Shown one piece after another: positions 2,500 to 38,016 of a DNA stretch of 38,029 nucleotides (position 1 is the stretch's first letter; each line of letters opens with the position of its first letter). The position numbers and the translations under genes were made by a program. Source of the stretch: a virus. The stretch lies in the UHGV virus genome UHGV-0335973, one strand, 5' to 3'. The notes beneath the pieces were generated by a model that searched no databases, was not told the DNA's origin, and worked only from the letters and a program-made list of their open reading frames with translations.

Positions 2500-3471
2500 A
2501 TGTCAATCTCCACAACGATCGTACCTCTTAATCTTCAACAAGATTTAGGGGAACAGAAGTTCTTAGGTCGTGGGTGCTTCGGTATCCACAACTACATGCA
2601 AGGTCAAGTCGTAGCTGATATTAATGGTGAAACTATCTCGGAAGAAGGGCGTTATCGTCGTTTCAACCGTGATATCAACTTGCAACTGGAGATGTTGAAT
2701 TACTGGACTCACTCTTTTCACGGTCATATTGCATCTGAAATTGAAAAGAACTTGGTTGAAACAGCAGACATTATGAACTCCATGTCTTGCTATCGTCACG
2801 TATTTACGATCACTTCGGCGAATAGTGTTGCTGTCAACCTTCGTGAGCATCCAGCAGATCAGATCTTCACAGGACTTATGCTCTTCCGTAGTATTCTGGA
2901 AGGGCAATATCGTGGAATGGATTTCCTAGCAGAAGGAATTGAAGACAGGGAAGAGTGGCTGAAGCGTAAACGCATCGGCATCGCTCTAGTGTTAGCTGGG
3001 TTGGGTCGTGACTTCTTCGGTGGATGGTCTCAACGAGGAAGAGCCAATGGGAGTAGCGAGAGCACCTCTATTGTTATTAACAACAATATGTCAGCAGCAG
3101 CATTCCTTCCTTTGGTTGTAGACTCTGATGAATATACGAAGCAAGTATGGGTTCAAAACCCTTTCGGTGTTGGTGACAACAAGGATGGTTATGTTCGCAA
3201 CCATAACCAAGATGCCTTACGAAGATTTGCTCGTGCTAAAGATCAAGACCCAGACGAGTATGAAACAATGTCAGAGTGGTTAAGACTCTGGTCCAACTGT
3301 CATGGTCACAAACGTGAATCAATAGACGACAAGTTGGGAAACATTACAGTACAAAACTTTACATCCCGACTGATTCAAAGAACTGGAGCAGATTCCGGTC
3401 TTACTCTTGAAGAAGTTGGTAACACAATCTCATCTCTCTTTTCTGAACTAGTGGAGTATTACAATGACTAA
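2500..3471 (+). CDS. hypothetical protein (323 aa)
   Basis: long ORF, overlaps next gene by 8 nt. Confidence 0.6.
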   Translation: MSISTTIVPLNLQQDLGEQKFLGRGCFGIHNYMQGQVVADINGETISEEGRYRRFNRDINLQLEMLNYWTHSFHGHIASEIEKNLVETADIMNSMSCYRHVFTITSANSVAVNLREHPADQIFTGLMLFRSILEGQYRGMDFLAEGIEDREEWLKRKRIGIALVLAGLGRDFFGGWSQRGRANGSSESTSIVINNNMSAAAFLPLVVDSDEYTKQVWVQNPFGVGDNKDGYVRNHNQDALRRFARAKDQDPDEYETMSEWLRLWSNCHGHKRESIDDKLGNITVQNFTSRLIQRTGADSGLTLEEVGNTISSLFSELVEYYND

Positions 3472-4270
3472 GCGCAATTTCTTAATAGGCAGCGACCCTG
3501 AGATGTTCGTCCGTACCAGCAACGGTATTATCACCTCTGTGGCTGGTCTGTTAGGCTGTTCTAAGGATGATAAGATCACTCTGGCTAAGGATGTTCGTCT
3601 TCAAGAGGACAACGTACTGGCTGAGTTTGATATTGACCCACAGAGCGGTTTTGAAGCGTTTAACGATAACATGCAACGTGGTATTGATCTCACCAATAAT
3701 GTCCTGAACAAACTGGACATGGAAATAGCTCCGGGTGTTAGCTCTCACATCTTCACTGAAGAAGAGATGAAAACTTTCAACGAATCAGCGTTCATCTTCG
3801 GGTGCACTCCTGATTTCAACGCCTTCACTGGTCAGAAGAATCCATCCCCGACTTCTCAGAATAAGGGACTTCGTACTGCCGGTGGTCACGTACATCTTGG
3901 TGTGGTTGGTGCTTTGGATATCACTCTGCAAACCCAGATGATGTTGGGTGTGCTGTGTGATTACTTCCTATCCCTCCCAGCAGTAATTATGGACAAAGAT
4001 ACTCGCCGTAAAGAACTCTACGGTAAAGCATCTGCAATCCGTTATAAAGACTATGGTATTGAATACCGTTCTCTGTCTAACTTCTGGATTAGTGGTCGTG
4101 AAAACCGTAAGTTTGTTTACGATCAGGTTGACAAGGTTGTTCAGCAGTGCGATATGTCCACTCTGATGGCATTGCACTCTCGTCTTCCGATTGAGAAGCT
4201 TCATGAAATCATTAACGGGAACAACGTTAAAGAAGCGGACCAGCAGATCAAACTCCTTCAGGTAGCATAA
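3464..4270 (+). CDS. amidoligase-like protein (divergent Amidoligase_2 / glutamine-synthetase-like COOH-NH2 ligase)
   Basis: N-terminal LIGSDPEMF acidic strand, GGHVHLGV and IEYRS motifs that parallel GVGIELELEG, STHVHMD and GSIEFR in the neighbouring amidoligase. Confidence 0.45.
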   Translation: MTKRNFLIGSDPEMFVRTSNGIITSVAGLLGCSKDDKITLAKDVRLQEDNVLAEFDIDPQSGFEAFNDNMQRGIDLTNNVLNKLDMEIAPGVSSHIFTEEEMKTFNESAFIFGCTPDFNAFTGQKNPSPTSQNKGLRTAGGHVHLGVVGALDITLQTQMMLGVLCDYFLSLPAVIMDKDTRRKELYGKASAIRYKDYGIEYRSLSNFWISGRENRKFVYDQVDKVVQQCDMSTLMALHSRLPIEKLHEIINGNNVKEADQQIKLLQVA

Positions 4271-4279
4271 GAGGTTATC

Positions 4280-4897
4280 GTGAGCTTAGTAGCTGATTTT
4301 TCTCATTACTATAATGGTACATGGATTGCTAAACGAGCAGGTAATATCAACCTTCCATGTTTTGTGATTGGTGTTGAGCAGAGCGGTAACTTCCGCAGTG
4401 ATGACTTCTCTCACGAAGCAGAACAGGCTCTGTACTTTGTTGTAGAGCAGTGGTACAAGAACGAGCATGGGAATCTCCGAAACACTACGATGAATATTCC
4501 AGTGTTCGACCCAACTTTGATTCTTGAATCACCTGATGTTGGTTATCTGTTCCATAACGGTAACACTGTAAGCTGGACTCATATCAACCCTGTTCGTCAG
4601 AGAGCGAAGGGTTTGATGGGTAACAAGATCCGAAACGCTCCGGGGGTTGGTCGTTCTATCTCTGGTGAAATGGTTTACAGTCTATTCAATCCTGAATTCG
4701 AAGGATTGGTTACTCGTTATATTTATATCAACCCTACGGATGGTAAGGTGCACTATAAAGGTGCACTGGTAGGACAAGTAGATCTGGAAGCGCCTCGTGA
4801 CTCTTACGGTCAGCAACCAATGCGACTTCTGGAACACTTTCATCACATTTCTGAAAACCTTAGCAATTATAATATTACGTTGGTGGATTCGTTATGA
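4280..4897 (+). CDS. hypothetical protein (205 aa, GTG start)
   Basis: ORF with AAGAGG SD; overlaps next gene (ATGA). Confidence 0.5.
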   Translation: MSLVADFSHYYNGTWIAKRAGNINLPCFVIGVEQSGNFRSDDFSHEAEQALYFVVEQWYKNEHGNLRNTTMNIPVFDPTLILESPDVGYLFHNGNTVSWTHINPVRQRAKGLMGNKIRNAPGVGRSISGEMVYSLFNPEFEGLVTRYIYINPTDGKVHYKGALVGQVDLEAPRDSYGQQPMRLLEHFHHISENLSNYNITLVDSL

Positions 4898-5997
4898 CAA
4901 CTGTAGCGCAAACTTTTGGATATCGAGAAGGTCGTTTAACTGAGGCGCATAGTTCAATTGCACTTCAGTGCGGTGTCGGTATTGAACTTGAACTCGAAGG
5001 TTCCGACCATATCGAAGCAGATATGTGGGATTGTACAGAGGATGGTTCCCTGCGTAATGGTTGTGAAATGGTATGTTCACGGCCTTACAACGGACAGGAG
5101 TTGTTAGACGCTATCAACAACCTGAGTGAAGCAGTAGCTGAATCGCACGCCGAGGGGACTTGGCGTTGCTCTACTCACGTTCATATGGATATGAGGGATG
5201 CTGATAGTAATATCCTCAAGAAAACCATTCTCGCTTGGACCTTCTATGAAAAGATGTTGTTCAAGTGTTCAGGCTACCACCGTTACCGTAGCAACTTCTG
5301 CCCTGCTTTTGCAGTGGTACAAGCACAGGTAATGAATGCCTCTGACGCATTTAACTACGACGATGAAGAGTTCTTCAACCGTCTGGTTCGTTCATGGGAT
5401 AAGTACACATCCCTGAACCTTCTGCCACTTGCCCAATACGGTTCGATTGAGTTCCGTATCAGTGAGCCTAAGTGGAAACGTGGTCAACTTCTCAATCTGG
5501 TTAACCGCTTCTTAATGTTGAAGAAGCTGGCTTTAGATAACGCAGAGATGAGCAATGATCAGTTTATTGAGCATTTAAATACTGTAAGATTTGCCCCAAT
5601 GCTTCCTTACCTTCCTCTGGATTACAATCTGGATGAATCGGATTTGCATTCAGGCTATTGTATGGCCCGTGATGTTTTGTATTGTCGTTCTCATGAAGTA
5701 GAACAGTCTGGTCGTATTCGTTTACGTCGAACCAACTCCAACGGAGAAGTTCTTGTTGACCTACGCCATATCTCAGACTTCTACGGATTCCTTGGATATG
5801 TTCGAGGGAACGCTAACAACTTGTACCAAGAGATTCTGGTTATGCTCCGTACAACTGATCTATCTACTGTACGATCTGCACCAGAGCAACGTATCCGTGC
5901 TATTTTTGACTTACTACGTGAGTCTGGTCACAGTGATAGCAATATCACAGGGTACATTCCAGACCATCTGGAAAATCAGTTAGAGCAAGCGCTGTAA
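4894..5997 (+). CDS. amidoligase (Amidoligase_2 family)
   Basis: GVGIELELEG...EDGSL..GCEMV, CSTHVHMDM, YTSLNL...GSIEFR motifs typical of the family. Confidence 0.65.
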   Translation: MTTVAQTFGYREGRLTEAHSSIALQCGVGIELELEGSDHIEADMWDCTEDGSLRNGCEMVCSRPYNGQELLDAINNLSEAVAESHAEGTWRCSTHVHMDMRDADSNILKKTILAWTFYEKMLFKCSGYHRYRSNFCPAFAVVQAQVMNASDAFNYDDEEFFNRLVRSWDKYTSLNLLPLAQYGSIEFRISEPKWKRGQLLNLVNRFLMLKKLALDNAEMSNDQFIEHLNTVRFAPMLPYLPLDYNLDESDLHSGYCMARDVLYCRSHEVEQSGRIRLRRTNSNGEVLVDLRHISDFYGFLGYVRGNANNLYQEILVMLRTTDLSTVRSAPEQRIRAIFDLLRESGHSDSNITGYIPDHLENQLEQAL

Positions 5998-6076
5998 TCA
6001 ATGGGTGCCTCTGACAAAGGGGCACAATTTAAAGGTTAATTAGATGAAAGGGTTTACCCTTCAGGTGGATTAGAAA

Positions 6077-8107
6077 ATTTGTGGCATCGTATTAGCTGGC
6101 GGTAATCTGTCAAGCACTGATTTAGACGTATTTAACCAACTCTTTTATGCTGGGGTATTCCGAGGACAACATTCCTCCGGTATCTTTGGTCAGCGTAAAA
6201 GTACTAAGGAAGTCTTCACTTATAAAGAAGCTCTTCCTTCTTTCGCATTCATCCTACAAGATGAGTACAAGAAGCACACCACTGGTGAAACAGCTTACAC
6301 TGTAGCACCTTCATGGATTGTTGGTCACAGCCGTCATGCAACGAAAGGTGCAGTTAACGCCAAGAACGCCCATCCTTTCCAACATGGTAACATCACTCTG
6401 GTTCATAACGGAACCTTGATGGACCAAGATCTGTTACCTGACAGCAAAAACTTCGAGGTAGACAGTGAGAACATCTGCCACTCTATTAACACTATTGGTG
6501 CAGCAGAAACTATTCAAAAGCTGGATGGTGCTTTCACCTTAATCTGGCATGATGCTTCTGATAACCGTCTTCATATCATCCGTAACGAAGAGCGTCCATT
6601 CCACCTCGCACGTTGTAACAGAGATTGGTTTGGTGCTTCTGAAGAAGACATGTTGATGTGGATTCTGAAGCGTTCTAGATCTCACAAGAACCGTATTGAT
6701 GAGCATTTTGAATGTAAAGTTGGTACAGAGTATATCTTTGACATGTCAAACAACAGCATGACTCTGGTTGAAGAGGTCGCCCACGAGCTTCCGGTTTTTA
6801 CGGTAGCCAATCGTTGGGGCAGTTATTACTCGAACAACTACAGCCAAAGCAACTATCAAAGTTCCTCAAAAAGCAATACAAGCAATCCTTACGACACGAA
6901 GCCGGGAGTGACAGCGGCAGACGTTCGTCGAAGAAACGCAGTGGTAAGTCAAAACAAAATCGCAAGCGATCGAAACATTGACATTCGCCGCGATATGACT
7001 GTGGAGATCACTCCGCATGAGTTCGTTCCTTATGCAACTGCTGGTGCTGTTCCTTCTCGTGGTAAGATGATTGGTTATATCTACGATGAGAAGTCTCAAG
7101 AGTACATCGAAGGTGATGTTCATAACGTAGATATTAAGGCTTATCAGGATGCACTGAAAGACCCTAAAATTATTTACCGTGGGACAGTATCCTGCATCTC
7201 CGAAGTTAATGCTATGGTTCGTTTAGTGATCACAGCCGGTCGTTTTGTTGACCCATCTCTGGAGAAAAAGGAGTCTGAGTCAACTACTGCTGACTTCGAT
7301 GATGATATCCCTTTTGATATGAATGATAGTTTCGTCAACAAGAATGGCGTTACTATCACTCGTAAATTCTGGGAAGCACACTCTCATGGCGATTGTGGTG
7401 GTTGTGACAAGCACATTGACTGGAAGGATGCACCTAAAGCAGTCTTCGCATATCAGTGCTACTGGCATCCTGAATGTCTGGAAGGTTTGACTAAACCTAA
7501 AGAGGAAGAAGAGGAGGAGACTCCTATTGGTGTTTGTGAAATCTGTGGTGAAGTTAAAACAGAAAATGAGTTCGATGATGAACTTAGTCGTCTTCGTGGT
7601 GAAGATATCTGTAAAGTCTGCGCTGTAGATGTAAAGAAGAAAGTATCTAATGCTACAATCAAAGATGGTTATGTCTGGATTAAAGCAACAGATACAACAA
7701 ACGCCCGTCGTCCTGAATTTGCTTTACGTGTAACTGAAGATATGATCGGTCGTATGACTGTATTACCTTCCTCAGCGAAACAGACAGGCATCACTCTGGA
7801 GGATGTTGTTGATGCTTATGTTGAGAAACGTAGCAACAGTATTTTTGCAATCTCAACTAAGCCAAAAAAGGAGGAACCTGCTGAGAAAGCAGGTGTGTTT
7901 CCTGAATCACGAACAGCTCTCCGCAAAACTGTTGTTAGCTTCGACGGAAACCGAAGCACTGACTTCACCAAAGCCATGTGGTCAACCCTCGGCTACTGCT
8001 CAGAGTGTTTTAAGCAGATTCCGTGGCGCGATGCTGAAAGTTGTACGCTTGGTTCTATGAATCAAGTTTATTGTAATTCTCCTAAATGTTCATTGAATAG
8101 AGGTTAA
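6077..8107 (+). CDS. class II glutamine amidotransferase-like Ntn hydrolase with C-terminal Cys-rich (zinc-ribbon-like) extension; start codon non-canonical (ATT proposed)
   Basis: in-frame CGIVLAGG...GHSRHATKGAVNAKNAHPFQHGNITLVHNGTL resembles GlmS/PurF N-terminal domain with Cys1 nucleophile; Cys codon at 6080 lies 2 codons after in-frame TAG; AGGTGG SD 8 nt upstream of ATT 6077; track ORF 6416-8107 would lack the catalytic domain. Confidence 0.55.
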   Translation: MCGIVLAGGNLSSTDLDVFNQLFYAGVFRGQHSSGIFGQRKSTKEVFTYKEALPSFAFILQDEYKKHTTGETAYTVAPSWIVGHSRHATKGAVNAKNAHPFQHGNITLVHNGTLMDQDLLPDSKNFEVDSENICHSINTIGAAETIQKLDGAFTLIWHDASDNRLHIIRNEERPFHLARCNRDWFGASEEDMLMWILKRSRSHKNRIDEHFECKVGTEYIFDMSNNSMTLVEEVAHELPVFTVANRWGSYYSNNYSQSNYQSSSKSNTSNPYDTKPGVTAADVRRRNAVVSQNKIASDRNIDIRRDMTVEITPHEFVPYATAGAVPSRGKMIGYIYDEKSQEYIEGDVHNVDIKAYQDALKDPKIIYRGTVSCISEVNAMVRLVITAGRFVDPSLEKKESESTTADFDDDIPFDMNDSFVNKNGVTITRKFWEAHSHGDCGGCDKHIDWKDAPKAVFAYQCYWHPECLEGLTKPKEEEEEETPIGVCEICGEVKTENEFDDELSRLRGEDICKVCAVDVKKKVSNATIKDGYVWIKATDTTNARRPEFALRVTEDMIGRMTVLPSSAKQTGITLEDVVDAYVEKRSNSIFAISTKPKKEEPAEKAGVFPESRTALRKTVVSFDGNRSTDFTKAMWSTLGYCSECFKQIPWRDAESCTLGSMNQVYCNSPKCSLNRG

Positions 8108-8111
8108 GTTT

Positions 8112-8345
8112 ATGGAAATCAGAAAAATGATGTTGGATAACGTTGTAACTACTCGACGTATCCCGATGACGAGCACAGGATGTGATAACCTTCGTGCAAT
8201 CCAGAAGTGGATGCAAGCTGGTATTGGTCAAGTACTTGAGACACAGGTTGAGGTTCCATTCCCAACGGTGATCAATAACGTACTTGCTGATTATGTAAAA
8301 ATCAAAGGCATTAAGGTAGAACCTCATGTCAAATCTGGTTCCTAA
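8112..8345 (+). CDS. hypothetical protein (77 aa)
   Basis: ORF in operon context. Confidence 0.45.
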   Translation: MEIRKMMLDNVVTTRRIPMTSTGCDNLRAIQKWMQAGIGQVLETQVEVPFPTVINNVLADYVKIKGIKVEPHVKSGS

Positions 8346-8550
8346 GAAACCGAAGATTACTCTCCTACAGTATTACATAGGAGTTCATATCGAATTAGTA
8401 ACGGAGCAGCGAAAGCTGTATCCGTTCGCTTTCGGTCTGATTGATGCACCATCCGATGAAGTAGAGAACGACGCGTTCAACGACTACTTCGAAATTGAAG
8501 CTCAGATTCAAAAAACTCGTAACGAAATTCTTAAACTTAAAGGTATCTAA
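8326..8550 (+). CDS. hypothetical protein (74 aa) immediately upstream of ATP-grasp gene
   Basis: ORF ends 2 nt before ATP-grasp start. Confidence 0.4.
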   Translation: MSNLVPKKPKITLLQYYIGVHIELVTEQRKLYPFAFGLIDAPSDEVENDAFNDYFEIEAQIQKTRNEILKLKGI

Positions 8551-8552
8551 CA

Positions 8553-25917: not shown

Positions 25918-26085
25918 ATGAAGAAATATAGTGTATGGATTAATGAGGAAGAAGAAGGTTTTGATGAAGTTGGAGGATGGGTAAATATCCTAAACACTGA
26001 CGACATAGAAGAGGCCGAGAAGTGCGCCCTAAACTATAACTCTGGATATTATGAAAGAAATTGGGAGTATAAGGAAGAAGTATGA
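25918..26085 (+). CDS. hypothetical acidic small protein
   Basis: ORF from track with internal ATG start. Confidence 0.3.
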   Translation: MKKYSVWINEEEEGFDEVGGWVNILNTDDIEEAEKCALNYNSGYYERNWEYKEEV

Positions 26086-26240
26086 TTTGGATTCACACTT
26101 ATAAGATTGGAAAGAAAGAGATCACCGTTGTACATCACTCTGAGGAAAGTGCAAATGCTTCTCAGGAAGTCTTGAAAGGTGAAGTTAAAACATACGTCGA
26201 AGTAAAAGCTAAATCTTGGTCATAATTAATAGGAGTAAAA

Positions 26241-26456
26241 ATGGAATACATTGATAAATATTCAAGTGAAGATTCAACAGACGCTGAAGTTTTATTTATA
26301 CTAAAAACAGACTGTCTTGAACATGGTCAACTTATCAATTTCATCGAGTTGGCAAAACTTAAAGAAGAGATCGATCAACTATATAGTGATGAGCAATCCA
26401 GATTACTTTCTCTATCCCTTCTAGGTGATTTAACTTGCGATGGTTGCATGATATGA
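26241..26456 (+). CDS. hypothetical protein (71 aa)
   Basis: ORF with AGGAG SD. Confidence 0.4.
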   Translation: MEYIDKYSSEDSTDAEVLFILKTDCLEHGQLINFIELAKLKEEIDQLYSDEQSRLLSLSLLGDLTCDGCMI

Positions 26457-26926
26457 TAGAAGATCTTCTTGATGAGTTCTTTGTTTGTGATTTATCATCT
26501 GGAAAAGTGTTCTGGAGAATTCACAACGGAACAAAATGCAGGCAAGGCGACGAGGCAGGAACTTCAAAAAAGGATGGAAGAGTACTTATTCGAGTGAAAG
26601 GAAGAGCCATTTACAGATACCACATCATTTGGTATTTTGCTAATGGCGTTTTACCTAAAGATCAAATAGATCATATTGATCGAAACCCTTCCAATGATTC
26701 CATAGGCAACCTTAGAGAAGTTAACAACGAGAATAACTCTTGGAACAAGGGTTTGAACTCTAACAACACATCAGGGGCTAAGGGTGTATACCTCAATTCA
26801 AGAGGGAAGTACATAGCCAATATACACATTAAAGGTAAAACTAAATACCTAGGAACTTTCTCAACCCTAGAGGAAGCCGTCTCTGTTAGAAACAGAGCGG
26901 AGGAAGATCACAAATTAACTATCTAA
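26435..26926 (+). CDS. freestanding HNH endonuclease with AP2-like DNA-binding domain
   Basis: IDHIDRNPSNDSIGNLR HNH motif; SGAKGVY...YIANI..KGKTKYLGTFSTLEEA AP2-like motif. Confidence 0.6.
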   Translation: MRWLHDMIEDLLDEFFVCDLSSGKVFWRIHNGTKCRQGDEAGTSKKDGRVLIRVKGRAIYRYHIIWYFANGVLPKDQIDHIDRNPSNDSIGNLREVNNENNSWNKGLNSNNTSGAKGVYLNSRGKYIANIHIKGKTKYLGTFSTLEEAVSVRNRAEEDHKLTI

Positions 26927-26935
26927 GAGGTCTTT

Positions 26936-27439
26936 ATGGCTGAAGTTTATTTTGCAGGAGATGGTCACTTAGGTCATCGCAACATCTGTAGTTTTCGTAA
27001 GCAATTTAAAACCATCGAAGAACATGACAAAGAAATTCTAGCTGCATTTGATCATGTAACTAAGCGAGACAAAATCTTCTTTACCGGTGATTGGGTGTTT
27101 GAAAAGTATGCCCTTGATATCATCGCTGAAGTAAAAGGAGAGAAGCATCTAGTCTTAGGGAACCATGACAGGTTAGAACTTCTCCCTGATATGATGAAAG
27201 TCTTCCGTAGAATCTCTGGTGATTATAAATATAAAGAGTTTTGGGTAACTCATATCCCTATTCACACTGATGAGATGAGAGGAAAGTTTAACATTTATGC
27301 TCATACACACAACCATGTAATTGATGATTGGAGATATTTCTGTACATCAATGGAGCAAATTAACTATAAAGCTGTTTCTCTGCAAGAGATTAGGAAGGTC
27401 TTTGATGAAAGAAGAAAAGAACAAGATCTCGTTATTTAA
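26936..27439 (+). CDS. calcineurin-like metallophosphoesterase
   Basis: GDGHLGH, GDW, GNHD, THIP, HTH metal-ligand motif series. Confidence 0.6.
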   Translation: MAEVYFAGDGHLGHRNICSFRKQFKTIEEHDKEILAAFDHVTKRDKIFFTGDWVFEKYALDIIAEVKGEKHLVLGNHDRLELLPDMMKVFRRISGDYKYKEFWVTHIPIHTDEMRGKFNIYAHTHNHVIDDWRYFCTSMEQINYKAVSLQEIRKVFDERRKEQDLVI

Positions 27440-27985
27440 AGAACCTGTAGTACATAAAGACTCTATCAGAGATCAATATAATGAGATGTTAAAGAAACAA
27501 GCTGATTCTAATCTTCGTTATCAGAGGATAGTAGAACAATCTAACTTTAAAGGTTTACTTGAATGGTAACTTATATTGTTTACTTCTTAGCTTTCTTAGG
27601 AATAATCTTTTTATCTATTATTCTTGAATTTGGTTTAAGTAAGTTAGTTAATTATTTAGGTAATAAGTAATTATTATTCTTTTAAATAGAGAATCAAAGT
27701 CCCTAGGAGTCCCTACAACCTAAATCAAGGATTCCTTAATTCTCTATTTTTATCTCGCAGGTGGCTCCTGCCCTTCGGTACTTGCAAGGGATTCTGTGAA
27801 TTGCCCAATATACAAGCCTGCAATAACTTTATCAGCTATACAATATATACATTACTAGTGTGTTATATCTACTACCAAAGATACTTATATTATATAGCAC
27901 TCTTATCGGTATAAGCGTAATGTATACTATACATAACCGCTCAAAGAGAGCAACAATCTTTCAAATTAAATAAGGAAATTAAAAT

Positions 27986-28732
27986 ATGTCTATGATTCCA
28001 ACTATCGCAACTGCTTCCCGTAAATCCAACTACGATGTAATCCCTGATGGTGAATACGAAGCACGTATCGTTCGTGTAGTAGGTTTGGGTGTTCACAATC
28101 GTGACCCTTGGATTGACCCGAAGACCAAAGCAGTAACTCCTAAGAATCCGGCTTTCCGTATGGATTTAGCTTTCGAGCTGATTGGTGTTGATGCTACTGG
28201 TAAAGATTCCGATGGTAAGGCATTAGAACCACGTCCGGCTTGCCAGTTCAAGAGCTATGATGTAAACCCACGAGCTAAGAACTCTGGTATTCTTGATCTC
28301 TGCAAGATGATTGACCCAAGTATTCAAGCACTGAAAGGTGATCTGTCTTGGTTCAAGGATGTTCTGTTAGGTCAGCCTGTTAACATTCTGGTTAACTCTT
28401 ATACTAACAAAGCTGGTGAAGTTAAAAACTCCATCAAGACCATTTCTCCAATCCCAACCAAATATCGTGCAGCAGTTGGTGAAGCTCGCAGTCCTCTGGT
28501 ATTCTTCGAACCATATGCTGAAACCGATGAGAACGTAGCATCCTATCAACTGATGTTCCCGTTCCAGCGCAACCTGCTTACCCAAGCTAATGACGCTAAG
28601 AACATGCCTCTGGCTGGTCGTGAAATTACTCGTGCTTCTGAAACAGAACAGAAAGAAGCTACTCCTTCAATCCCTACGATTGATAAAGAGCCTGCTTCTA
28701 CCTATGAAGATGACAACGACTCTCCTTTCTAA
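27986..28732 (+). CDS. putative ssDNA-binding protein with acidic C-terminal tail ending in Phe
   Basis: C-terminus YEDDNDSPF resembles acidic F-terminated tails of E. coli SSB and T7 gp2.5; strong RBS, long upstream intergenic region, terminator downstream. Confidence 0.45.
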   Translation: MSMIPTIATASRKSNYDVIPDGEYEARIVRVVGLGVHNRDPWIDPKTKAVTPKNPAFRMDLAFELIGVDATGKDSDGKALEPRPACQFKSYDVNPRAKNSGILDLCKMIDPSIQALKGDLSWFKDVLLGQPVNILVNSYTNKAGEVKNSIKTISPIPTKYRAAVGEARSPLVFFEPYAETDENVASYQLMFPFQRNLLTQANDAKNMPLAGREITRASETEQKEATPSIPTIDKEPASTYEDDNDSPF

Positions 28733-33762: not shown

Positions 33763-36700
33763 TCACTCCTTAGGTCGAACTCTTACACGGAGTCTCGATT
33801 GACGCTTACTGCGTTCAAGCTTCTCTGACAATGAGCCACGTTTAATCTTAGGCTTCCCTTCGTCATTAAACTTCTCCAAGAACTGCAAGTACTCAGTACG
33901 ATTCGTTGTCTTGTAAGAAGGAATCTTAATATCAGGGTTCTCTTCAATTACACGTCTCATCTTCGCTACATCATCCCTACCAAGCAACTTACTCTTAGCC
34001 TGTTCAGCTGTAGAACCAAAGATCTTCTCCAGTGCTCTGGATTTGTTACCACCTGCGGAAGAAGCACCAAGTTTAGCAATGGCAGAGTAATCATCAGCAC
34101 TAAACCAAGCTACTGGATTATCACCATACTTCTTCTTGTTTTCAGCAGCAGTCTGCAATGCACGTACAAAGCGACGGTTGTTACCAGCCTTATCTGCACC
34201 ATGAACCCTGTCTAAAACTTCAGCCACACTAGCCAACTCATCCAAGCTCTTCCCACTCAAGAAAGCTTTCTCTACTTTATCAGCAAAGACCTCTTCCTGT
34301 TGTTTAATACTTTCCAAGATATCAGAATTTGCTTGAGATCTTTCATCATCAGGCAGAGCAGAACGAATCTTCTCCATCTCCAACTCTTCCTCTTGCAGTT
34401 TCTTAATATCAGAGTCAACCTTCTGAGCCTCCTCAATAGCCTTCCTAGTATCCGCATCCAAGTTATCAAGCTTACCTTCAGTATCTCCAGTAACCTTAAC
34501 AATCTCTTTCTCGATAGGAGTCATTGATTCGTACTTCTTAGCAAACTTCTCAACATCAGCTTCGATACGAGAACGAGCATTCTGATGTTCAGTGGGAGTC
34601 ATAGGCTTCTCAAGAAGTGCATAACGGTTGTCCATATAGGAACCAGCAAATACTTCAGCATCCTCTCTAGATATGCCCTTATCTTCCATAGTACGCATCA
34701 GGCGGCGATGAATGTCATCACGTTGACGTTGTACTGCCATAAGGTCATTCTCACGCTCTTGGGCCGCTTTAAGCTCTTCACTGCGCTTAACTCTCTTGTC
34801 CACATCAAACTTACGGTTCATCTCTTCCGCTTGCTCATACATCTTATTCCACTTGGCCTGACGAGCATCTTCCTCTGCATCAGTTAAACGACGCTGACGA
34901 TCAAGGTAATCTGACTCGGCGTTGTGGATACGTTCAATGTAACTACGGAACTTCTCTGGAGGAACTGGAGAGTTCTTGTCATGGTGAGCAGCCAACTGTT
35001 TCAATGTACGAGATTCCTGAGCCTCACGAACAGGTTTAGGTAAACCTTCCATCATCTTCTCAATCTCACTCTTCTGAGCTGCAATAGCCTCTAGAGTTTT
35101 ACGTTCATTCTCAACAGCAGCCTTAGCATCTGAACGAGCCTGAGCTTTGTTTTTCAGAGTAGCAAGACGTTCTTCACGAGCTTGTATGTGTTTAGCAAAA
35201 GCTTCGTACTGAGAGTTCTTGTTAGCTTTGTTGAAGGCATTCACTTCTCTGTTGTAGGTGTTAATAAACCCATCCCAAATATCCTTCATCTGACCAACTT
35301 CCAAAGCCTCTTCCCTACCAGCCTTCTCTGAAGACTTAAACTTCCCGTCTACAAAGTCATTCATCAGCTTACGCATAGCGTCTTTCTGAGCAGGACGTAA
35401 AGGTTCTGAATCAATCAAAGCATCAATCTCAGACTGAAGCTCTTTCTTCTGGTCAACCAGCTTAGGAGCATTCTTGTTATCGAAAGCTTTATTCTCTTCA
35501 AGAGCTTGTTGATACAGTCTATCAAACTCATCTTCACGCTGCTTCTGATACAACCTTTCAGCACGACGTTTCAGACTATCCAAGTTAGTTACGTTCCCAC
35601 CTAAACCTTTCTCTTCAGCACGTAATGCCTTAGTAGCAATATCTTCTGGCAGACCACGTTCCTTAACCCATTCAGCAAAATTAGTTCGTACAGTGTTGTT
35701 CTTAGCAGTAGCAATACCTTGCTGAGAAGCCAGCTGGTTACGAGCCATTTCTTCATGACGTTCAGTGTTGATAGCATTATCTTCCTGACGAATACGACGC
35801 ATCAACTCTTTAGGATCACCCTTGTAAGCCAAGAAGTTTTCAGCAGTAGCTTTAGCCTTAGCAGCCTTAGAGTACAAAGAACGAGCAAAACGTTCTGCAC
35901 GATCTTTAGTAGCCTGACGAGCAGCACTAGACATAGCAGCTAAACGTTCTACACCACTTGCCGGTTTAACGTCCTGTACAGCTTCCTTAGGAGCTTTAGG
36001 AGCACTAGCAGGTAATGGATCAGCTTGTCTTAGAGAACTAGCTTTGACCATATCGTTTGAGTCAACCAAATTATGGTTGCGCAAAAACTGTTGCTCAGCC
36101 GGGGTGAACTGGTTTAGGCGAAGAGCAATGTTGCCATTTAAATCTTGAGAAAGTATCCCATCTTCAGTGTAGTGAGAGAGAGATTCTTTAGTAACAGAAG
36201 ATACATCCTCTGATGAAACCTTTTGGCCCTCTTCTTGAGCACGTTGCTGTTCCATTGCACGACGTTCCTCTAAAGGATTACGAGCAGGGAGTGGTTCAGC
36301 CTGTGGAGTCTGTTCGACCGGAACTTCTTGAGCTGCTGCTGCCTCTTCTTCAGCACGACGCTGTTCAGCCTGACGGATAGCACGTCTTTGCGCAACTAAA
36401 TCACGAGCTGTAAGAGGAGATTCTTGAGGAGCAGAAGAAGGAAGATTTTCTTCCGTCACAGTACTAGAAGAAGGCTCCCGAACCGGTTCGGTTTCTACGT
36501 CATTTTGCGTCTTAAATTTAATGTCGTCAACAACTGGCTCTTCTTCCATTTTAGCACGAGCTTCATCAGCAGTAGATTTAGCACGAGCAACTTCCAAATC
36601 ACCACGAGCCAGAGAGCGGATAGCTTCACTGTTAGACTCTTGTTGCTTAACACGTTGAGAACGGGCACGCTGAGAAGAGAAGCGATTCAGAGCATATTTA

Positions 36701-38016
36701 GCAGCACCAAGTGTATTCATAACCAGACTAGGAGAAGAAGCCTCACGGAAGCCATCATCAGTCAGGGAAGTCCAACCACGGTCTTGGTTGCTCATGAACT
36801 TAGCTGTATTATTCAGAGTGTAAGCATCTTGGATAGGATTAAAACCTTTAGGCATACCCTTCAGTTTCTTCAACCCACCAATAGCTTTCTTCATCTCTGG
36901 AGAAACGTTATCAGCCATCTTCTGTAGTTCAGCAGCTTTCTCTACGAAGTTGTTAAAGTCTTCACCATCACGAGCTTTGAATCGATTTGCTTCGTTATAG
37001 AAAGTCTTGTACGCATCAATGAAATCACGGTCAGCTTGTGTGCGATTCTTAATATCAATCGGACTGCCAGTAAAGTCACCAGAAGCTCGGAGAGAAACTA
37101 ACTCACGATCAAGATTATCCAGAACATCTGTAAGAGCTTTAGTGTTATCCTTGGTGTAGTCAGCCATTGCATCTTTCATAGCGACAGCTTGCTTCTGGTT
37201 GTGCTCATTATCAGCGAAGGCTTTACCACGAGTCTTAGCCGGAGAAGATAAAGGGTTAAGGCCCGGAATGTTGGAATGTTCTTTCTGAACAGAAGCAGCT
37301 TTCTCAGCACGAGCTTGGTCAGTATTAAGAATACGCTGAGCAGCAGGAGAATCTACAGCAACAGCATCTGTGATACGGAATCCGTTCTCGTCGAGAAGGT
37401 TCAGAGCAGAAGCAGCGTTAGCAGTTTCAGCTTTAGAGTAAGCCTCTTTCAGCTCATCAATATTCTTAGCACCACGAATCAGTTCATCATCAGCAGCAAT
37501 ATCAGTCTTCGCATACTCTGGAGTGTTCTTGAAGACAGCAGAATCCGGACGGCTAATCAAACCATGAACCCCACCAACTGCGCCACCAAATGCAGCACCC
37601 ATAGCCCCTTCTTCTATAACCCCTTCCAATGTCTTAGCTAGATCATTGTCATCACCATACTTGTTCTGAACCTCAGCAGCGCCAACAAGAGCACCACCTT
37701 TAGCACCAGCCACTGCGTTACTAGCAACGTTCTGACCAATACGACCAAGAGCTGATTCAGCTGTCCCTACAGCACCTGGAAGGATTCTTTGAGCTGCATA
37801 GTTAGCACCACCAACTAGGGCTGCATCTAGAACAGACTTATCTTCCCCCTCTTTAGGGGTTTGGTCTGCATACGCACGACCGGTCTCACGACCTGCGATG
37901 ATAGCAGCGGCAGCTAACGGGTTAGCAACTGTCAGACCAATATCGGCAACCACCCCAGCATACTGACCAGCAGATTTACCAATCCCATCCTCAATCTTAT
38001 CCATACGTTCTTTCAA
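33763..38016 (-). CDS. giant virion-associated protein (putative internal/ejection protein), 1417 aa or longer
   Basis: single uninterrupted - strand ORF; N-terminal Gly/Ala-rich hydrophobic segments, long charged coiled-coil-like central and C-terminal regions; no stop between start 38016 and window end. Confidence 0.5.
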   Translation of the reverse strand: MKERMDKIEDGIGKSAGQYAGVVADIGLTVANPLAAAAIIAGRETGRAYADQTPKEGEDKSVLDAALVGGANYAAQRILPGAVGTAESALGRIGQNVASNAVAGAKGGALVGAAEVQNKYGDDNDLAKTLEGVIEEGAMGAAFGGAVGGVHGLISRPDSAVFKNTPEYAKTDIAADDELIRGAKNIDELKEAYSKAETANAASALNLLDENGFRITDAVAVDSPAAQRILNTDQARAEKAASVQKEHSNIPGLNPLSSPAKTRGKAFADNEHNQKQAVAMKDAMADYTKDNTKALTDVLDNLDRELVSLRASGDFTGSPIDIKNRTQADRDFIDAYKTFYNEANRFKARDGEDFNNFVEKAAELQKMADNVSPEMKKAIGGLKKLKGMPKGFNPIQDAYTLNNTAKFMSNQDRGWTSLTDDGFREASSPSLVMNTLGAAKYALNRFSSQRARSQRVKQQESNSEAIRSLARGDLEVARAKSTADEARAKMEEEPVVDDIKFKTQNDVETEPVREPSSSTVTEENLPSSAPQESPLTARDLVAQRRAIRQAEQRRAEEEAAAAQEVPVEQTPQAEPLPARNPLEERRAMEQQRAQEEGQKVSSEDVSSVTKESLSHYTEDGILSQDLNGNIALRLNQFTPAEQQFLRNHNLVDSNDMVKASSLRQADPLPASAPKAPKEAVQDVKPASGVERLAAMSSAARQATKDRAERFARSLYSKAAKAKATAENFLAYKGDPKELMRRIRQEDNAINTERHEEMARNQLASQQGIATAKNNTVRTNFAEWVKERGLPEDIATKALRAEEKGLGGNVTNLDSLKRRAERLYQKQREDEFDRLYQQALEENKAFDNKNAPKLVDQKKELQSEIDALIDSEPLRPAQKDAMRKLMNDFVDGKFKSSEKAGREEALEVGQMKDIWDGFINTYNREVNAFNKANKNSQYEAFAKHIQAREERLATLKNKAQARSDAKAAVENERKTLEAIAAQKSEIEKMMEGLPKPVREAQESRTLKQLAAHHDKNSPVPPEKFRSYIERIHNAESDYLDRQRRLTDAEEDARQAKWNKMYEQAEEMNRKFDVDKRVKRSEELKAAQERENDLMAVQRQRDDIHRRLMRTMEDKGISREDAEVFAGSYMDNRYALLEKPMTPTEHQNARSRIEADVEKFAKKYESMTPIEKEIVKVTGDTEGKLDNLDADTRKAIEEAQKVDSDIKKLQEEELEMEKIRSALPDDERSQANSDILESIKQQEEVFADKVEKAFLSGKSLDELASVAEVLDRVHGADKAGNNRRFVRALQTAAENKKKYGDNPVAWFSADDYSAIAKLGASSAGGNKSRALEKIFGSTAEQAKSKLLGRDDVAKMRRVIEENPDIKIPSYKTTNRTEYLQFLEKFNDEGKPKIKRGSLSEKLERSKRQSRLRVRVRPKE

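What the first reader, a model, noticed from the sequence alone, without database searches (positions are those of the whole stretch)
7380..8107. Cys-rich zinc-ribbon-like C-terminal extension fused to the GAT-II domain
After the amidotransferase-like domain the protein continues for about 450 residues containing several CxxC pairs (CGGCDKH...HPEC; CEICGEV...CKVC; CSECFKQ...C...CNSPKC). Such an extension could deliver the enzyme to a nucleic acid or protein target, which bears on what the module modifies.
Basis: seen in the sequence. Interest (0 to 1): 0.4.

Follow-up and report, generated by a model that had tools for sequence, protein, structure and literature searches.

The report
Zinc-finger and SSB-like arm on phage amidotransferase
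The cysteine clusters are real and conserved: they form three small zinc-binding modules at the end of a phage glutamine amidotransferase, and just before them lie an SSB-like OB fold and an exact copy of the E. coli SSB tail motif, which suggests, without proving it, that this arm takes the enzyme to replicating DNA or to partner proteins.

Summary
The window is a Kuravirus (phiEco32/SU10-like) genome. The finding lies in the ortholog of phiEco32 gp83 (window 6077-8107, 676 aa, ATT start).

**Observation: confirmed.**
- Residues 435-676 hold four CxxC pairs (shuffle p about 0.002).
- 12 of the 13 cysteines are invariant in 17 homologs that fall to 34% identity (Fisher 6.5e-12).

**The extension is a chain of parts, not one zinc ribbon:**
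- a low-complexity linker;
- an OB fold (285-396);
- a half-LIM-like CCHC module;
- a CCCC module;
- a small alpha/beta domain;
- a terminal module homologous to the first.

AlphaFold2 models these modules with confidence (pLDDT 85-95). In each, the second ligand pair sits at the start of a helix, which is treble-clef-like rather than a classic ribbon.

**Distribution.** A terminal zinc module appears ancestral to this phage GAT-II family. The operon (two amidoligases, GAT-II, ATP-grasp, GGACT) is constant and lies next to replication genes.

**Best reading, inferred not shown:** a non-catalytic targeting or scaffolding arm, possibly directed to ssDNA or the replisome. Against this, the domains are not basic and the SSB motif is internal rather than C-terminal.

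I rate it a new variant of a known kind, of moderate interest.

The parts
6077..8107 (+). Whole gene: ortholog of phiEco32 gp83 / SU10_085, 'glutamine amidotransferase'. 676 aa, ATT start codon, stop at 8105-8107.
   Evidence: Translation. 97.8-98.5% nucleotide identity to phiEco32 and SU10, which annotate the same coordinates. The sequence context is TAG AAA ATT TGT, with AGGTGGA 8 nt upstream.
6077..6796 (+). Class-II (Ntn) glutamine amidotransferase domain, residues 1-240, with Cys2 as the nucleophile.
   Evidence: Pfam GATase_6 E 1.1e-14, 55 bits against a cut-off of 27; GATase_7 27.4 against 25. The HNG and DSE motifs are invariant in the alignment. The nearest solved structures are the GlmS and PurF glutaminase domains, weakly (E about 0.03).
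6797..6928 (+). Low-complexity linker rich in S, N, Y and Q, residues 241-284.
   Evidence: Read from the sequence. It is variable and full of gaps in the alignment.
6929..7264 (+). OB-fold domain, residues 285-396: an N-terminal helix, then beta1-3, a helix, and beta4-5.
   Evidence: AlphaFold2 model mf86d78aaf00f, block pLDDT 72-88, with DSSP showing OB topology. The top Foldseek PDB hits are SSB/RPA/POT1-type OB folds, E 3e-3 to 5e-2, probability up to 0.99. A local HMM of this domain matches all 36 long-family proteins.
7292..7315 (+). DFDDDIPF, residues 406-413. [quoted passage not shown] Here the motif is internal and is followed by the invariant D414. It sits in a disordered acidic linker (397-417).
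   Evidence: This is the only D[DE][IVL]PF match in the six-frame translation of the window. The SSB-Ct sequence MDFDDDIPF is given in PMC7913777. hhalign aligns only these 8 residues, at 100% identity. pLDDT is below 50 for residues 398-414. D409, D410, P412, F413 and D414 are invariant in 13 homologs. The motif is present in 22 long-family proteins.
7328..7486 (+). Zinc module 1, residues 418-470. Ligands C440, C443, H464, C467 with half-LIM spacing. H435 and H437 are also invariant.
   Evidence: Invariant ligands. pLDDT 88-95. The PDB sequence search gives LMO4 LIM finger 1, E 0.14. Foldseek's best hits are PINCH-1 and LMO2 LIM domains, E 0.04.
7526..7663 (+). Zinc module 2 plus a long helix, residues 484-529. 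Ligands C487, C490, C512, C515.
   Evidence: All four cysteines are invariant. pLDDT 86-91. C512 and C515 lie at the start of a helix.
7664..7864 (+). Small alpha/beta domain, residues 530-596, with no recognisable relative.
   Evidence: pLDDT 86-92, four strands and two short helices. No significant Foldseek or Pfam match.
7922..8104 (+). Zinc module 3, residues 616-676, at the C-terminus. Ligands C641, C644, C666, C671, plus the clade-specific C656. It is a paralog of module 1.
   Evidence: All five cysteines are invariant. hhalign of module 1 against module 3 gives probability 84%, E 7e-6 over 33 columns. pLDDT 89-92. A terminal module of this kind is found in 20 of 32 short relatives.
3464..5997 (+). 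Upstream operon partners: COOH-NH2 ligase type 2 (3464-4270), a conserved protein of about 205 aa with unknown function (4280-4897), and Amidoligase_2 (4894-5997).
   Evidence: Pfam and PHROGs. The same gene order is seen in distant relatives.
8112..10672 (+). Downstream operon partners: DUF7195 (8112-8345), a small ORF (8326-8550), a RimK-like ATP-grasp enzyme (8553-9746) and a GGACT gamma-glutamyl cyclotransferase-like protein (10253-10672). The primase/helicase gene follows from 10892.
   Evidence: Pfam, PHROGs and the phiEco32, SU10 and Bas91 annotations.

Best explanation
The roughly 436 residues after the glutaminase domain form a non-catalytic, beads-on-a-string recognition arm.

**Parts**
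- An SSB-like unit: an OB fold followed by a disordered acidic linker ending in the SSB tip motif DFDDDIPF.
- Three structural zinc modules of treble-clef, half-LIM type. Modules 1 and 3 are paralogs.
- A small alpha/beta domain.

**Proposed working**
- The N-terminal Ntn domain hydrolyses glutamine, or a gamma-glutamyl amide.
- The arm holds that activity on a macromolecular target and/or on the partner ligases encoded beside it: two glutamine-synthetase-like amidoligases and a RimK-like ATP-grasp enzyme. The GGACT enzyme belongs to the same operon.
- The OB fold and SSB-tip motif would place the complex at single-stranded DNA or at proteins that read the SSB tail, that is, at the replication fork. 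The zinc modules would serve as rigid protein-contact surfaces.

**Shown here:** the domain layout, the conservation, the motif identity and the operon constancy.

**Inferred:** zinc binding, any DNA or protein binding, and the site of action.
For: **Domain architecture and zinc sites**
- Ligand residues are invariant in 17 homologs down to 34% identity.
- The AlphaFold2 model of residues 416-676 has mean pLDDT 84.7. The second ligand pair of each module sits at the start of a helix.
- Modules 1 and 3 are homologous.
- LIM domains are the nearest sequence and fold neighbours.

**SSB-like unit**
- OB topology, with SSB/RPA/POT1 OB folds as the top PDB matches.
- DFDDDIPF matches the E. coli SSB tip at 8 of 8 residues.
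- The motif lies in a segment with pLDDT below 50, as expected for a flexible tail.
- It is conserved as DD[IVLA]PF in 22 family members.

**An integral part of the enzyme family**
- An exhaustive profile search of 1.84 billion representatives finds the arm in only 24 clusters. The 23 full-length ones are 490-810 aa, and the match starts after the GAT-II domain, around residues 256-343; the 24th hit is a 52-aa fragment.
- 20 of 32 short GAT-II relatives end in a single CxxC...[CH]xxC module.
- Bruynoghevirus has an OB-like region plus a terminal cysteine module.

**Context**
- The operon COOH-NH2_lig, unknown protein of about 200 aa, Amidoligase_2, GAT-II, (DUF7195), ATP-grasp, GGACT is constant. 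In the longer contigs and phage genomes examined it lies directly upstream of helicase and polymerase genes; four other contigs confirm the gene order but end before any replication genes.
- Gordonclarkvirinae are reported as 'remarkably resistant to RM systems' with no known modification pathway (PMC11990801).
- Amidoligase and amidotransferase genes co-occur with thymidine-hypermodification genes in viral contigs (PMC8989533).
Against: - No domain of the arm is basic: OB pI 6.2, module 1 6.4, module 2 4.9, alpha/beta domain 6.4, module 3 8.7. This is weak support for nucleic-acid binding.
- The OB-fold matches are weak (E 3e-3 or worse), and SSB-type OB folds are over-represented in the PDB. 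There is no sequence-level similarity to SSB outside the 8-residue motif.
- From established structural work on SSB-Ct complexes, canonical recognition uses the free alpha-carboxylate of the terminal Phe. Here the motif is internal.
- The motif is missing from many relatives, including Bruynoghevirus, so it cannot be essential to the core function of the operon.
- LIM-type fingers are typically protein-binding modules.
- No base-activating enzyme (hydroxymethylase, DNA kinase, glycosylase-like) was detected in the operon.
Confidence: 0.4

Rival explanations
1. The arm is purely a protein-protein scaffold. The LIM-like zinc modules, and the OB fold acting as a generic binding surface, dock the glutaminase onto its partner ligases or onto a small carrier protein (DUF7195). 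This would let ammonia or a gamma-glutamyl intermediate be handed over. The product would be a small molecule, a peptide tag or a cell-wall modification, as Iyer et al. 2009 proposed for this phage module. DNA would play no part.
For: - LIM domains are the nearest neighbours of the zinc modules.
- The domains are neutral or acidic.
- The terminal zinc module is kept even in short relatives that lack the OB fold and tip motif, as expected if it docks a partner that is always present. The ligases are always present.
- A GAT-II protein with no fused synthase domain needs a partner in trans.
- Later authors cite Iyer et al. 2009 for a cell-wall or superinfection-exclusion role (PMC10580990).
Against: - It does not explain an exact 8-residue SSB tail motif directly after an SSB-like OB fold.
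- The number of zinc modules varies from 1 to at least 4 while the set of ligases stays the same, so a one-finger-per-partner scheme fails.
- The constant position beside replication genes is left unexplained.
Confidence: 0.3
2. The arm is a host-takeover decoy or targeting device aimed at the host SSB hub. The internal DFDDDIPFD copy would compete with host SSB for SSB-interacting proteins (chi, ExoI, RecQ, PriA, Ung and others). Alternatively it marks SSB-tail-like sequences as the substrate or pseudo-substrate that the amide-forming enzymes modify, switching off host replication and repair.
For: - The motif is identical to the host SSB tip and lies in a disordered acidic linker.
- The Asp that follows Phe is invariant and could stand in for the terminal carboxylate.
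- The partner enzymes act on carboxylates.
- The gene lies in the early region, and the protein is listed among early gene products in SU10 proteomics.
Against: - The motif is internal.
- It is absent from many family members that have the same operon.
- There is no direct evidence of any interaction.
- A decoy would not need to be fused to a glutaminase.
Confidence: 0.1
3. The cysteine clusters bind iron-sulfur clusters or act as redox-active disulfides, so they are catalytic or regulatory rather than structural zinc sites.
For: The region is rich in cysteine, and two further invariant histidines (H435, H437) lie next to site 1.
Against: - Each site is a pair of CxxC-type knuckles about 20 residues apart, and one site includes a histidine ligand. 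This is typical of zinc treble clefs and ribbons, not of CxxxCxxC or CxxCxxC Fe-S motifs.
- The neighbours are LIM and RING zinc domains.
- No radical-SAM or ferredoxin Pfam match was found.
Confidence: 0.04

Closest known systems
Class-II (Ntn, PurF/GlmS-type) glutamine amidotransferases
   Same: The N-terminal domain has Cys directly after the initiator codon, passes the Pfam GATase_6 and GATase_7 cut-offs, and keeps the HNG and DSE motifs.
   Different: There is no fused synthase domain. In its place are an OB fold, an SSB-tip motif and three zinc modules. The likely acceptor enzymes are encoded separately. Similarity to solved GlmS and PurF domains is very weak (E about 0.03).
phiEco32-type phage amidoligase module (Iyer, Abhiman, Burroughs & Aravind 2009; source of the Pfam family COOH-NH2_lig 'Phage phiEco32-like')
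   Same: This is the same operon: COOH-NH2 ligase type 2, Amidoligase_2, GAT-II, ATP-grasp and GGACT. The gene is the ortholog of phiEco32 gp83.
   Different: That work is a computational prediction about the enzymes. I could not read it. None of the papers I could read describes the C-terminal arm, its OB fold, the SSB-tip motif or the zinc modules.
LIM domain (first zinc finger)
   Same: The spacing C-x2-C-x20-H-x2-C and the YWH-x2-C signature match LIM finger 1. LMO4, LMO2 and PINCH-1 are the best sequence and fold neighbours.
   Different: Only half a LIM domain is present; no second finger follows directly. There is no Pfam LIM match, and the E-values are not significant (0.04-0.14). The 'TxxxW' helix in front of the finger is specific to this family.
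Bacterial SSB (OB fold + disordered linker + acidic C-terminal tip)
   Same: OB topology with SSB/RPA-type folds as the best matches. A disordered acidic segment ends in DFDDDIPF, identical to the E. coli SSB tip.
   Different: There is no sequence similarity in the OB domain and no Pfam SSB match. The tip is internal and followed by Asp, with only about 9 residues between the OB fold and the motif instead of a long linker. Oligomeric state is unknown.
Glutamine-dependent amide-forming enzymes in phage DNA hypermodification (predicted GAT-domain CmoY-like ligases acting on 5-carboxymethylcytosine, PMC12783734; amidoligase and amidotransferase genes in thymidine-hypermodification clusters, PMC8989533)
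   Same: These are phage-encoded glutamine amidotransferase and ligase pairs associated with DNA base modification.
   Different: Those systems sit with a base-activating enzyme (CmoX, 5-HMUDK, aGPT-Pplase). None was found here. The ligase folds also differ: AMP-forming there, glutamine-synthetase-like and ATP-grasp here.

Membership tests
Class-II (Ntn) glutamine amidotransferase | Catalytic Cys as the first residue after the initiator | tested here: met
   ATT(6077)-TGT(6080) with an in-frame TAG two codons upstream. Homologs begin MCGIV.
Class-II (Ntn) glutamine amidotransferase | Profile match above the curated threshold | tested here: met
   GATase_6 scores 55 bits against a cut-off of 27. 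GATase_7 scores 27.4 against 25.
Class-II (Ntn) glutamine amidotransferase | Coupled synthase (acceptor) domain in the same polypeptide | tested here: not met
   No synthase-type domain appears in Pfam, PHROGs, PDB or Foldseek searches of residues 241-676.
Class-II (Ntn) glutamine amidotransferase | Glutaminase activity and ammonia transfer | not testable with these tools
   This needs an enzyme assay with and without the partner ligases.
Classical zinc ribbon | Two CxxC knuckles about 15-30 residues apart | tested here: met
   C487-x2-C490-x21-C512-x2-C515. Distant relatives have CxxC-x(about 20)-CxxC modules.
Classical zinc ribbon | Both knuckles carried on beta-hairpins | tested here: not met
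   By DSSP of model md00b01491061, the second ligand pair of each module lies at the N-terminus of a helix, which is a treble-clef arrangement. This rests on a predicted model only.
Classical zinc ribbon | Stoichiometric zinc binding | not testable with these tools
   This needs ICP-MS or a PAR assay.
LIM domain | First finger C-x2-C-x16-23-H-x2-C | tested here: met
   C440-x2-C443-x20-H464-x2-C467, all four invariant.
LIM domain | Contiguous second finger (C-x2-C-x2-C-x16-21-C-x2-C/H/D) and a profile match | tested here: not met
   C467 is followed by an acidic linker with no second finger. No Pfam LIM hit at E up to 1. PDB LIM matches have E 0.14 or worse.
Bacterial SSB | OB fold of the SSB/RPA type | tested here: inconclusive
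   The predicted OB topology is clear and SSB/RPA/POT1 folds top the list. However E is 3e-3 or worse and TM-scores normalised to the target are 0.4-0.5.
Bacterial SSB | Sequence-profile membership (Pfam SSB) | tested here: not met
   No SSB family hit. hhalign against E. coli SSB aligns only the 8-residue tip.
Bacterial SSB | Acidic tip DDDIPF at the extreme C-terminus | tested here: not met
   The motif is present at 8 of 8 residues but lies at 406-413 of 676, followed by D414.
phiEco32-type amidoligase operon | Adjacent COOH-NH2_lig type 2, Amidoligase_2, GAT-II and ATP-grasp genes, with GGACT nearby | tested here: met
   Pfam hits in the window. Synteny with phiEco32, SU10 and Bas91 and with distant contigs.

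The most novel reading that the evidence does not exclude
The GAT-II/OB/SSB-tip/zinc-module protein is the DNA-targeting subunit of a so far unknown, amidoligase-based DNA hypermodification machine. It would ride on single-stranded DNA, or on proteins that bind the SSB tail, at the phage replication fork. There it would install an amide-linked (glutamyl or amidated) base modification. [quoted passage not shown]
Probability: 0.15. Interest if true: 0.85.

Novelty: new variant of a known kind. Interest (0 to 1): 0.5.

Why it matters
The operon around this gene occurs in several groups of phages, including the therapeutically used Kuravirus and Bruynoghevirus groups; relatives of the amidotransferase itself were found in 314 phage records. 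Its function has been unknown since a 2009 computational prediction.

The arm is the only part of the system that says anything about what is being modified. Finding an SSB-like OB fold and an exact SSB tail motif in it yields a concrete hypothesis that is cheap to test: the system acts at replicating DNA, or acts on or through the SSB interaction hub.

The same test addresses an open observation, the unexplained restriction resistance of Gordonclarkvirinae.

It also corrects annotation. The protein is routinely labelled 'glucosamine-fructose-6-phosphate aminotransferase'. Gene callers often truncate it because they miss the ATT start, and so lose the catalytic cysteine.

Tried and rejected
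1. **One zinc module per partner ligase.** Rejected. Relatives with a single module have the same three ligases.
2. **Sequence searches of the arm** against Pfam, PHROGs and PDB sequences. Only sub-threshold hits came back: zf-A20, DUF7837, A2M_BRD, endonuclease VII, and LIM at E 0.14.
3. **Foldseek of the zinc region alone** (residues 416-676) against the PDB. Nothing significant; the best hit is LIM at E 0.04. The alpha/beta domain (530-596) has no neighbour.
4. **Looking for a free-standing relative of the arm.** The exhaustive profile search found only GAT-II fusions, plus one 52-aa fragment.
5. **Looking for a base-activating or DNA-modifying enzyme in the operon.** The proteins of 397, 323 and 205 aa give no Pfam or PDB hit and fall in 'unknown function' PHROGs. 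ThyX and dCTP deaminase look ordinary.
6. **Another SSB-tail-like motif elsewhere in the window**, for example on a phage SSB. None found.
7. **RNA structure upstream of the ATT start.** Two local hairpins, but the fold is not better than shuffles (z -1.4).
8. **Iyer et al. 2009 (PMC3268129) and Savalia et al. 2008 (PMC2587145)** could not be read. Whether they mention the extension is therefore unchecked.
9. **Literature searches** for a Kuravirus DNA modification or a study of this protein's C-terminus found nothing.
10. **Zinc-site geometry** could not be measured, because model coordinates are not exposed.
Full report
**Source and gene.** The window is a Kuravirus genome, an E. coli podophage of the Gordonclarkvirinae. 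The 2,031-nt gene is 97.8-98.5% identical to phiEco32 gp83 and SU10_085, both annotated 'glutamine amidotransferase'. The ORF listing reports only 6416-8107 because the true start is an ATT at 6077. An in-frame TAG lies two codons upstream, AGGTGGA lies 8 nt upstream, and the next codon is the Cys that class-II amidotransferases need as their first residue. The protein is 676 aa. All residue numbers below count that initiator as 1.

**Checking the observation.**
- CxxC pairs start at residues 440, 487, 512 and 641 (nt 7394, 7535, 7610, 7997).
- Only 39 of 20,000 shuffles of residues 435-676 give four or more CxxC pairs.
- In an alignment of 17 homologs falling to 34% identity over this region, 12 of the 13 cysteines are invariant, against 18 of 248 other positions (Fisher p 6.5e-12).
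- The exception, C461, is replaced by A, S or G in relatives, while H464 is invariant.
- The sites are therefore C440/C443/H464/C467, C487/C490/C512/C515, and C641/C644/C666/C671 with an extra clade-specific C656.

**What lies between the enzyme and the cysteines.** Pfam recognises only the GAT-II domain: the GATase_6, GATase_7 and sub-threshold GATase_4 matches together span residues 75-192. I therefore modelled the rest with AlphaFold2.

- Model 1 covers residues 285-676 with 13 sequences (mean pLDDT 77).
- Model 2 covers residues 416-676 with 17 sequences (mean pLDDT 84.7).
- Both show well-folded beads joined by low-confidence linkers.

The beads, in order:
1. Residues 285-396 have the strand-strand-strand-helix-strand-strand order of an OB fold. 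Foldseek against the PDB returns almost only nucleic-acid-binding OB folds at the top (Ta0387 OB domain, RPA, human SSB1, POT1, CST). The E-values are modest, 3e-3 to 5e-2.
2. Residues 398-414 have pLDDT below 50 and are strongly acidic.
3. Residues 418-470, 484-529 and 616-676 are the three cysteine modules (pLDDT about 86-95).
4. Residues 530-596 form a small alpha/beta domain with no detectable relative.

**The SSB tail motif.** The disordered acidic segment reads ...TTADFDDDIPFDMND... Residues 406-413, DFDDDIPF, are identical to the last eight residues of E. coli SSB. This is the 'acidic tip' through which SSB recruits more than 17 genome-maintenance proteins (MDFDDDIPF; PMC7913777).

- It is the only such motif in the six-frame translation of the window.
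- It is the only stretch that hhalign aligns with E. coli SSB.
- D409, D410, P412, F413 and the following D414 are invariant in 13 homologs.
- A DD[IVLA]PF motif is present in 22 members of the long family.

An SSB-type fold followed by a flexible acidic tail ending in the SSB tip is the layout of an SSB protein, so the resemblance is unlikely to be accidental. Membership in the SSB family is not supported, however. The OB domain has no sequence similarity to SSB. The tip is also internal, whereas canonical recognition of the SSB tail uses the free carboxylate of the terminal Phe (established structural knowledge, not tested here).

**Nature of the cysteine modules.**
- In model 2 the first ligand pair of each module lies in a short knuckle. 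The second pair straddles the N-terminus of a helix: H464/C467 before helix 465-472, C512/C515 before helix 513-529, and C666/C671 around helix 669-672. That is a treble-clef arrangement rather than the two-hairpin zinc ribbon.
- Module 1 has exactly the spacing and the 'YWHxxC' signature of the first finger of a LIM domain.
- LMO4 is the best PDB sequence match (E 0.14). PINCH-1 and LMO2 LIM domains are the best fold matches (E 0.04). None is significant, and the second LIM finger is absent.
- Modules 1 and 3 are paralogs. Both begin with a strand and a 'T-x-x-x-W' helix and continue C-x2-C-x3-I-x-W-x-D-A. hhalign gives 84% probability, E 7e-6.
- I could not measure sulfur-sulfur distances because coordinates are not exposed. 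Zinc binding is therefore inferred from spacing, conservation, model confidence and neighbours.

**Distribution.**
- A profile of the arm was searched against 1.84 billion representative proteins. It found only 24 clusters. All but one 52-aa fragment are 490-810 aa, with the match beginning after a GAT-II domain. The arm has no detectable free-standing relatives.
- In these relatives the number and type of cysteine modules vary from one to at least four.
- Searching with the GAT-II domain alone retrieved shorter relatives of about 330-420 aa. Twenty of the 32 end with a single CxxC...[CH]xxC module 6-29 residues from the C-terminus. Several of the rest are fragments.
- The Bruynoghevirus (LUZ24-like) protein has an OB-like region and a terminal cysteine module but no SSB-tip motif.
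- The family occurs in 314 phage records infecting Pseudomonas, Escherichia, Vibrio, Aeromonas, Proteus, Salmonella and others.
- A terminal zinc module therefore looks ancestral to this phage amidotransferase family. The phiEco32 lineage duplicated it and added a second kind, and the SSB-tip motif is a clade-level addition.

**Context.** The gene order is COOH-NH2 ligase type 2, a conserved protein of about 200 aa with unknown function, Amidoligase_2, GAT-II, (DUF7195), RimK-like ATP-grasp, GGACT.

- This order is kept from Kuravirus to distant metagenomic contigs and to Bruynoghevirus.
- In the contigs and genomes long enough to show it, the operon lies directly upstream of the helicase/primase and DNA polymerase genes; the shorter contigs confirm only the gene order.
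- The number of zinc modules does not track the number of ligases, which rules out a simple one-finger-per-partner scheme.
- No hydroxymethylase, DNA kinase or glycosylase-like protein was detected in the operon.

**Literature.**
- Later papers cite Iyer et al. 2009 for the idea that this module modifies the cell wall or makes a metabolite. I could not read that paper.
- Lee et al. note amidoligase and amidotransferase genes of unknown role in thymidine-hypermodification clusters (PMC8989533).
- Glutamine-hydrolysing ligases are predicted to amidate 5-carboxymethylcytosine in other phages (PMC12783734).
- SU10 proteomics lists the amidotransferase, the ATP-grasp enzyme and the GGACT-like protein among early gene products.
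- I found no paper describing the arm, the SSB motif, or a Kuravirus DNA modification.

**Interpretation.** The best-supported reading is that the extension is a non-catalytic recognition and scaffolding arm whose cysteine clusters are structural zinc sites. I put confidence at about 0.4 for the version in which the OB fold and tip motif direct it to single-stranded DNA or to the replisome.

The main rival is a pure protein-protein scaffold towards the partner ligases or a carrier protein (about 0.3). It is favoured by the LIM-like character of the fingers, by the non-basic charge of every domain (pI 4.9-8.7), and by the persistence of the terminal finger in relatives that lack the OB fold and tip motif.

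A decoy or targeting role against the host SSB hub (about 0.1) and a redox or Fe-S role (about 0.04) are less likely.

**Novelty and score.** The gene and its operon are known and annotated. The amidotransferase and zinc-finger folds are ordinary. What appears new is the architecture of the arm, above all an SSB-like OB fold with an exact internal copy of the SSB tail, fused to a glutaminase. I rate it a new variant of a known kind, interest 0.5. It turns a vague 'Cys-rich extension' into specific, cheap experiments that also bear on the unexplained restriction resistance of these phages.

Noticed in passing
window 6071-6082; L011 (EP335) 631-650: The amidotransferase gene starts at an ATT codon in the context AGGTGGA-N8-ATT-TGT. 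The same context is conserved in Nieuwekanaalvirus EP335. There the GenBank CDS instead starts about 180 nt downstream and so loses the catalytic Cys. The 90%-identity cluster representative P0001 (211 member sequences) is likewise called from the internal TTG, as a 563-aa protein.
   Followed up: partly
window 11826-12608: A 783-bp insertion splits the primase/helicase gene, which is contiguous in phiEco32. The junction is precise: ...KKAEWG | IPYPWKT... The insert carries an HNH_3 endonuclease ORF (11919-12419) and a sub-threshold Rfam group I intron match (12337-12557; 27.7 bits against a gathering score of 50; E 8e-5). It is probably a group I intron with a homing endonuclease.
   Followed up: partly
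window 7379-7390 (residues 435-437): Two further invariant histidines (H435, H437, in the motif H-x-H-G-[DE]-C-G-G-C) lie directly before the first zinc knuckle, and H446 is nearly invariant. They are not needed for a four-ligand site. A second metal site or a functional surface is possible.
   Followed up: no
window 8112-8345: A 77-aa DUF7195 protein directly follows the amidotransferase gene here and in distant relatives (L004, L010). It is a candidate small carrier or substrate protein for the ATP-grasp and amidoligase enzymes. No function is known.
   Followed up: no
window 4280-4897: A protein of about 185-226 aa (phrog_4877, no Pfam or PDB match) always sits between the two amidoligase genes in every relative examined. 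It is a core member of the operon with unknown function.
   Followed up: partly
window 6000-6070: Two local hairpins lie between the amidoligase stop codon and the ATT start: GGGUGCCUC...GGGGCAC and AAGGGU..ACCCUU, the second next to the Shine-Dalgarno sequence. They are conserved in EP335. The overall fold is not better than shuffles (z -1.4).
   Followed up: partly
window 26000-28000 and 33763-38016: GC content dips to 0.33-0.37 at about 26-28 kb. A strand switch at about 33.7 kb is followed by a 1,417-aa ORF on the minus strand.
   Followed up: no
L009 4260-4871 and 12302-12784: One distant contig with the same operon also carries a class-I glutamine amidotransferase (Peptidase_C26) just upstream and a Macro domain protein among the replication genes.
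   Followed up: no
P0041 (L010 8001-9254): One relative (417 aa) has the GAT-II domain followed directly by three cysteine modules with no OB fold. The OB fold and the zinc modules are therefore separable units.
   Followed up: partly
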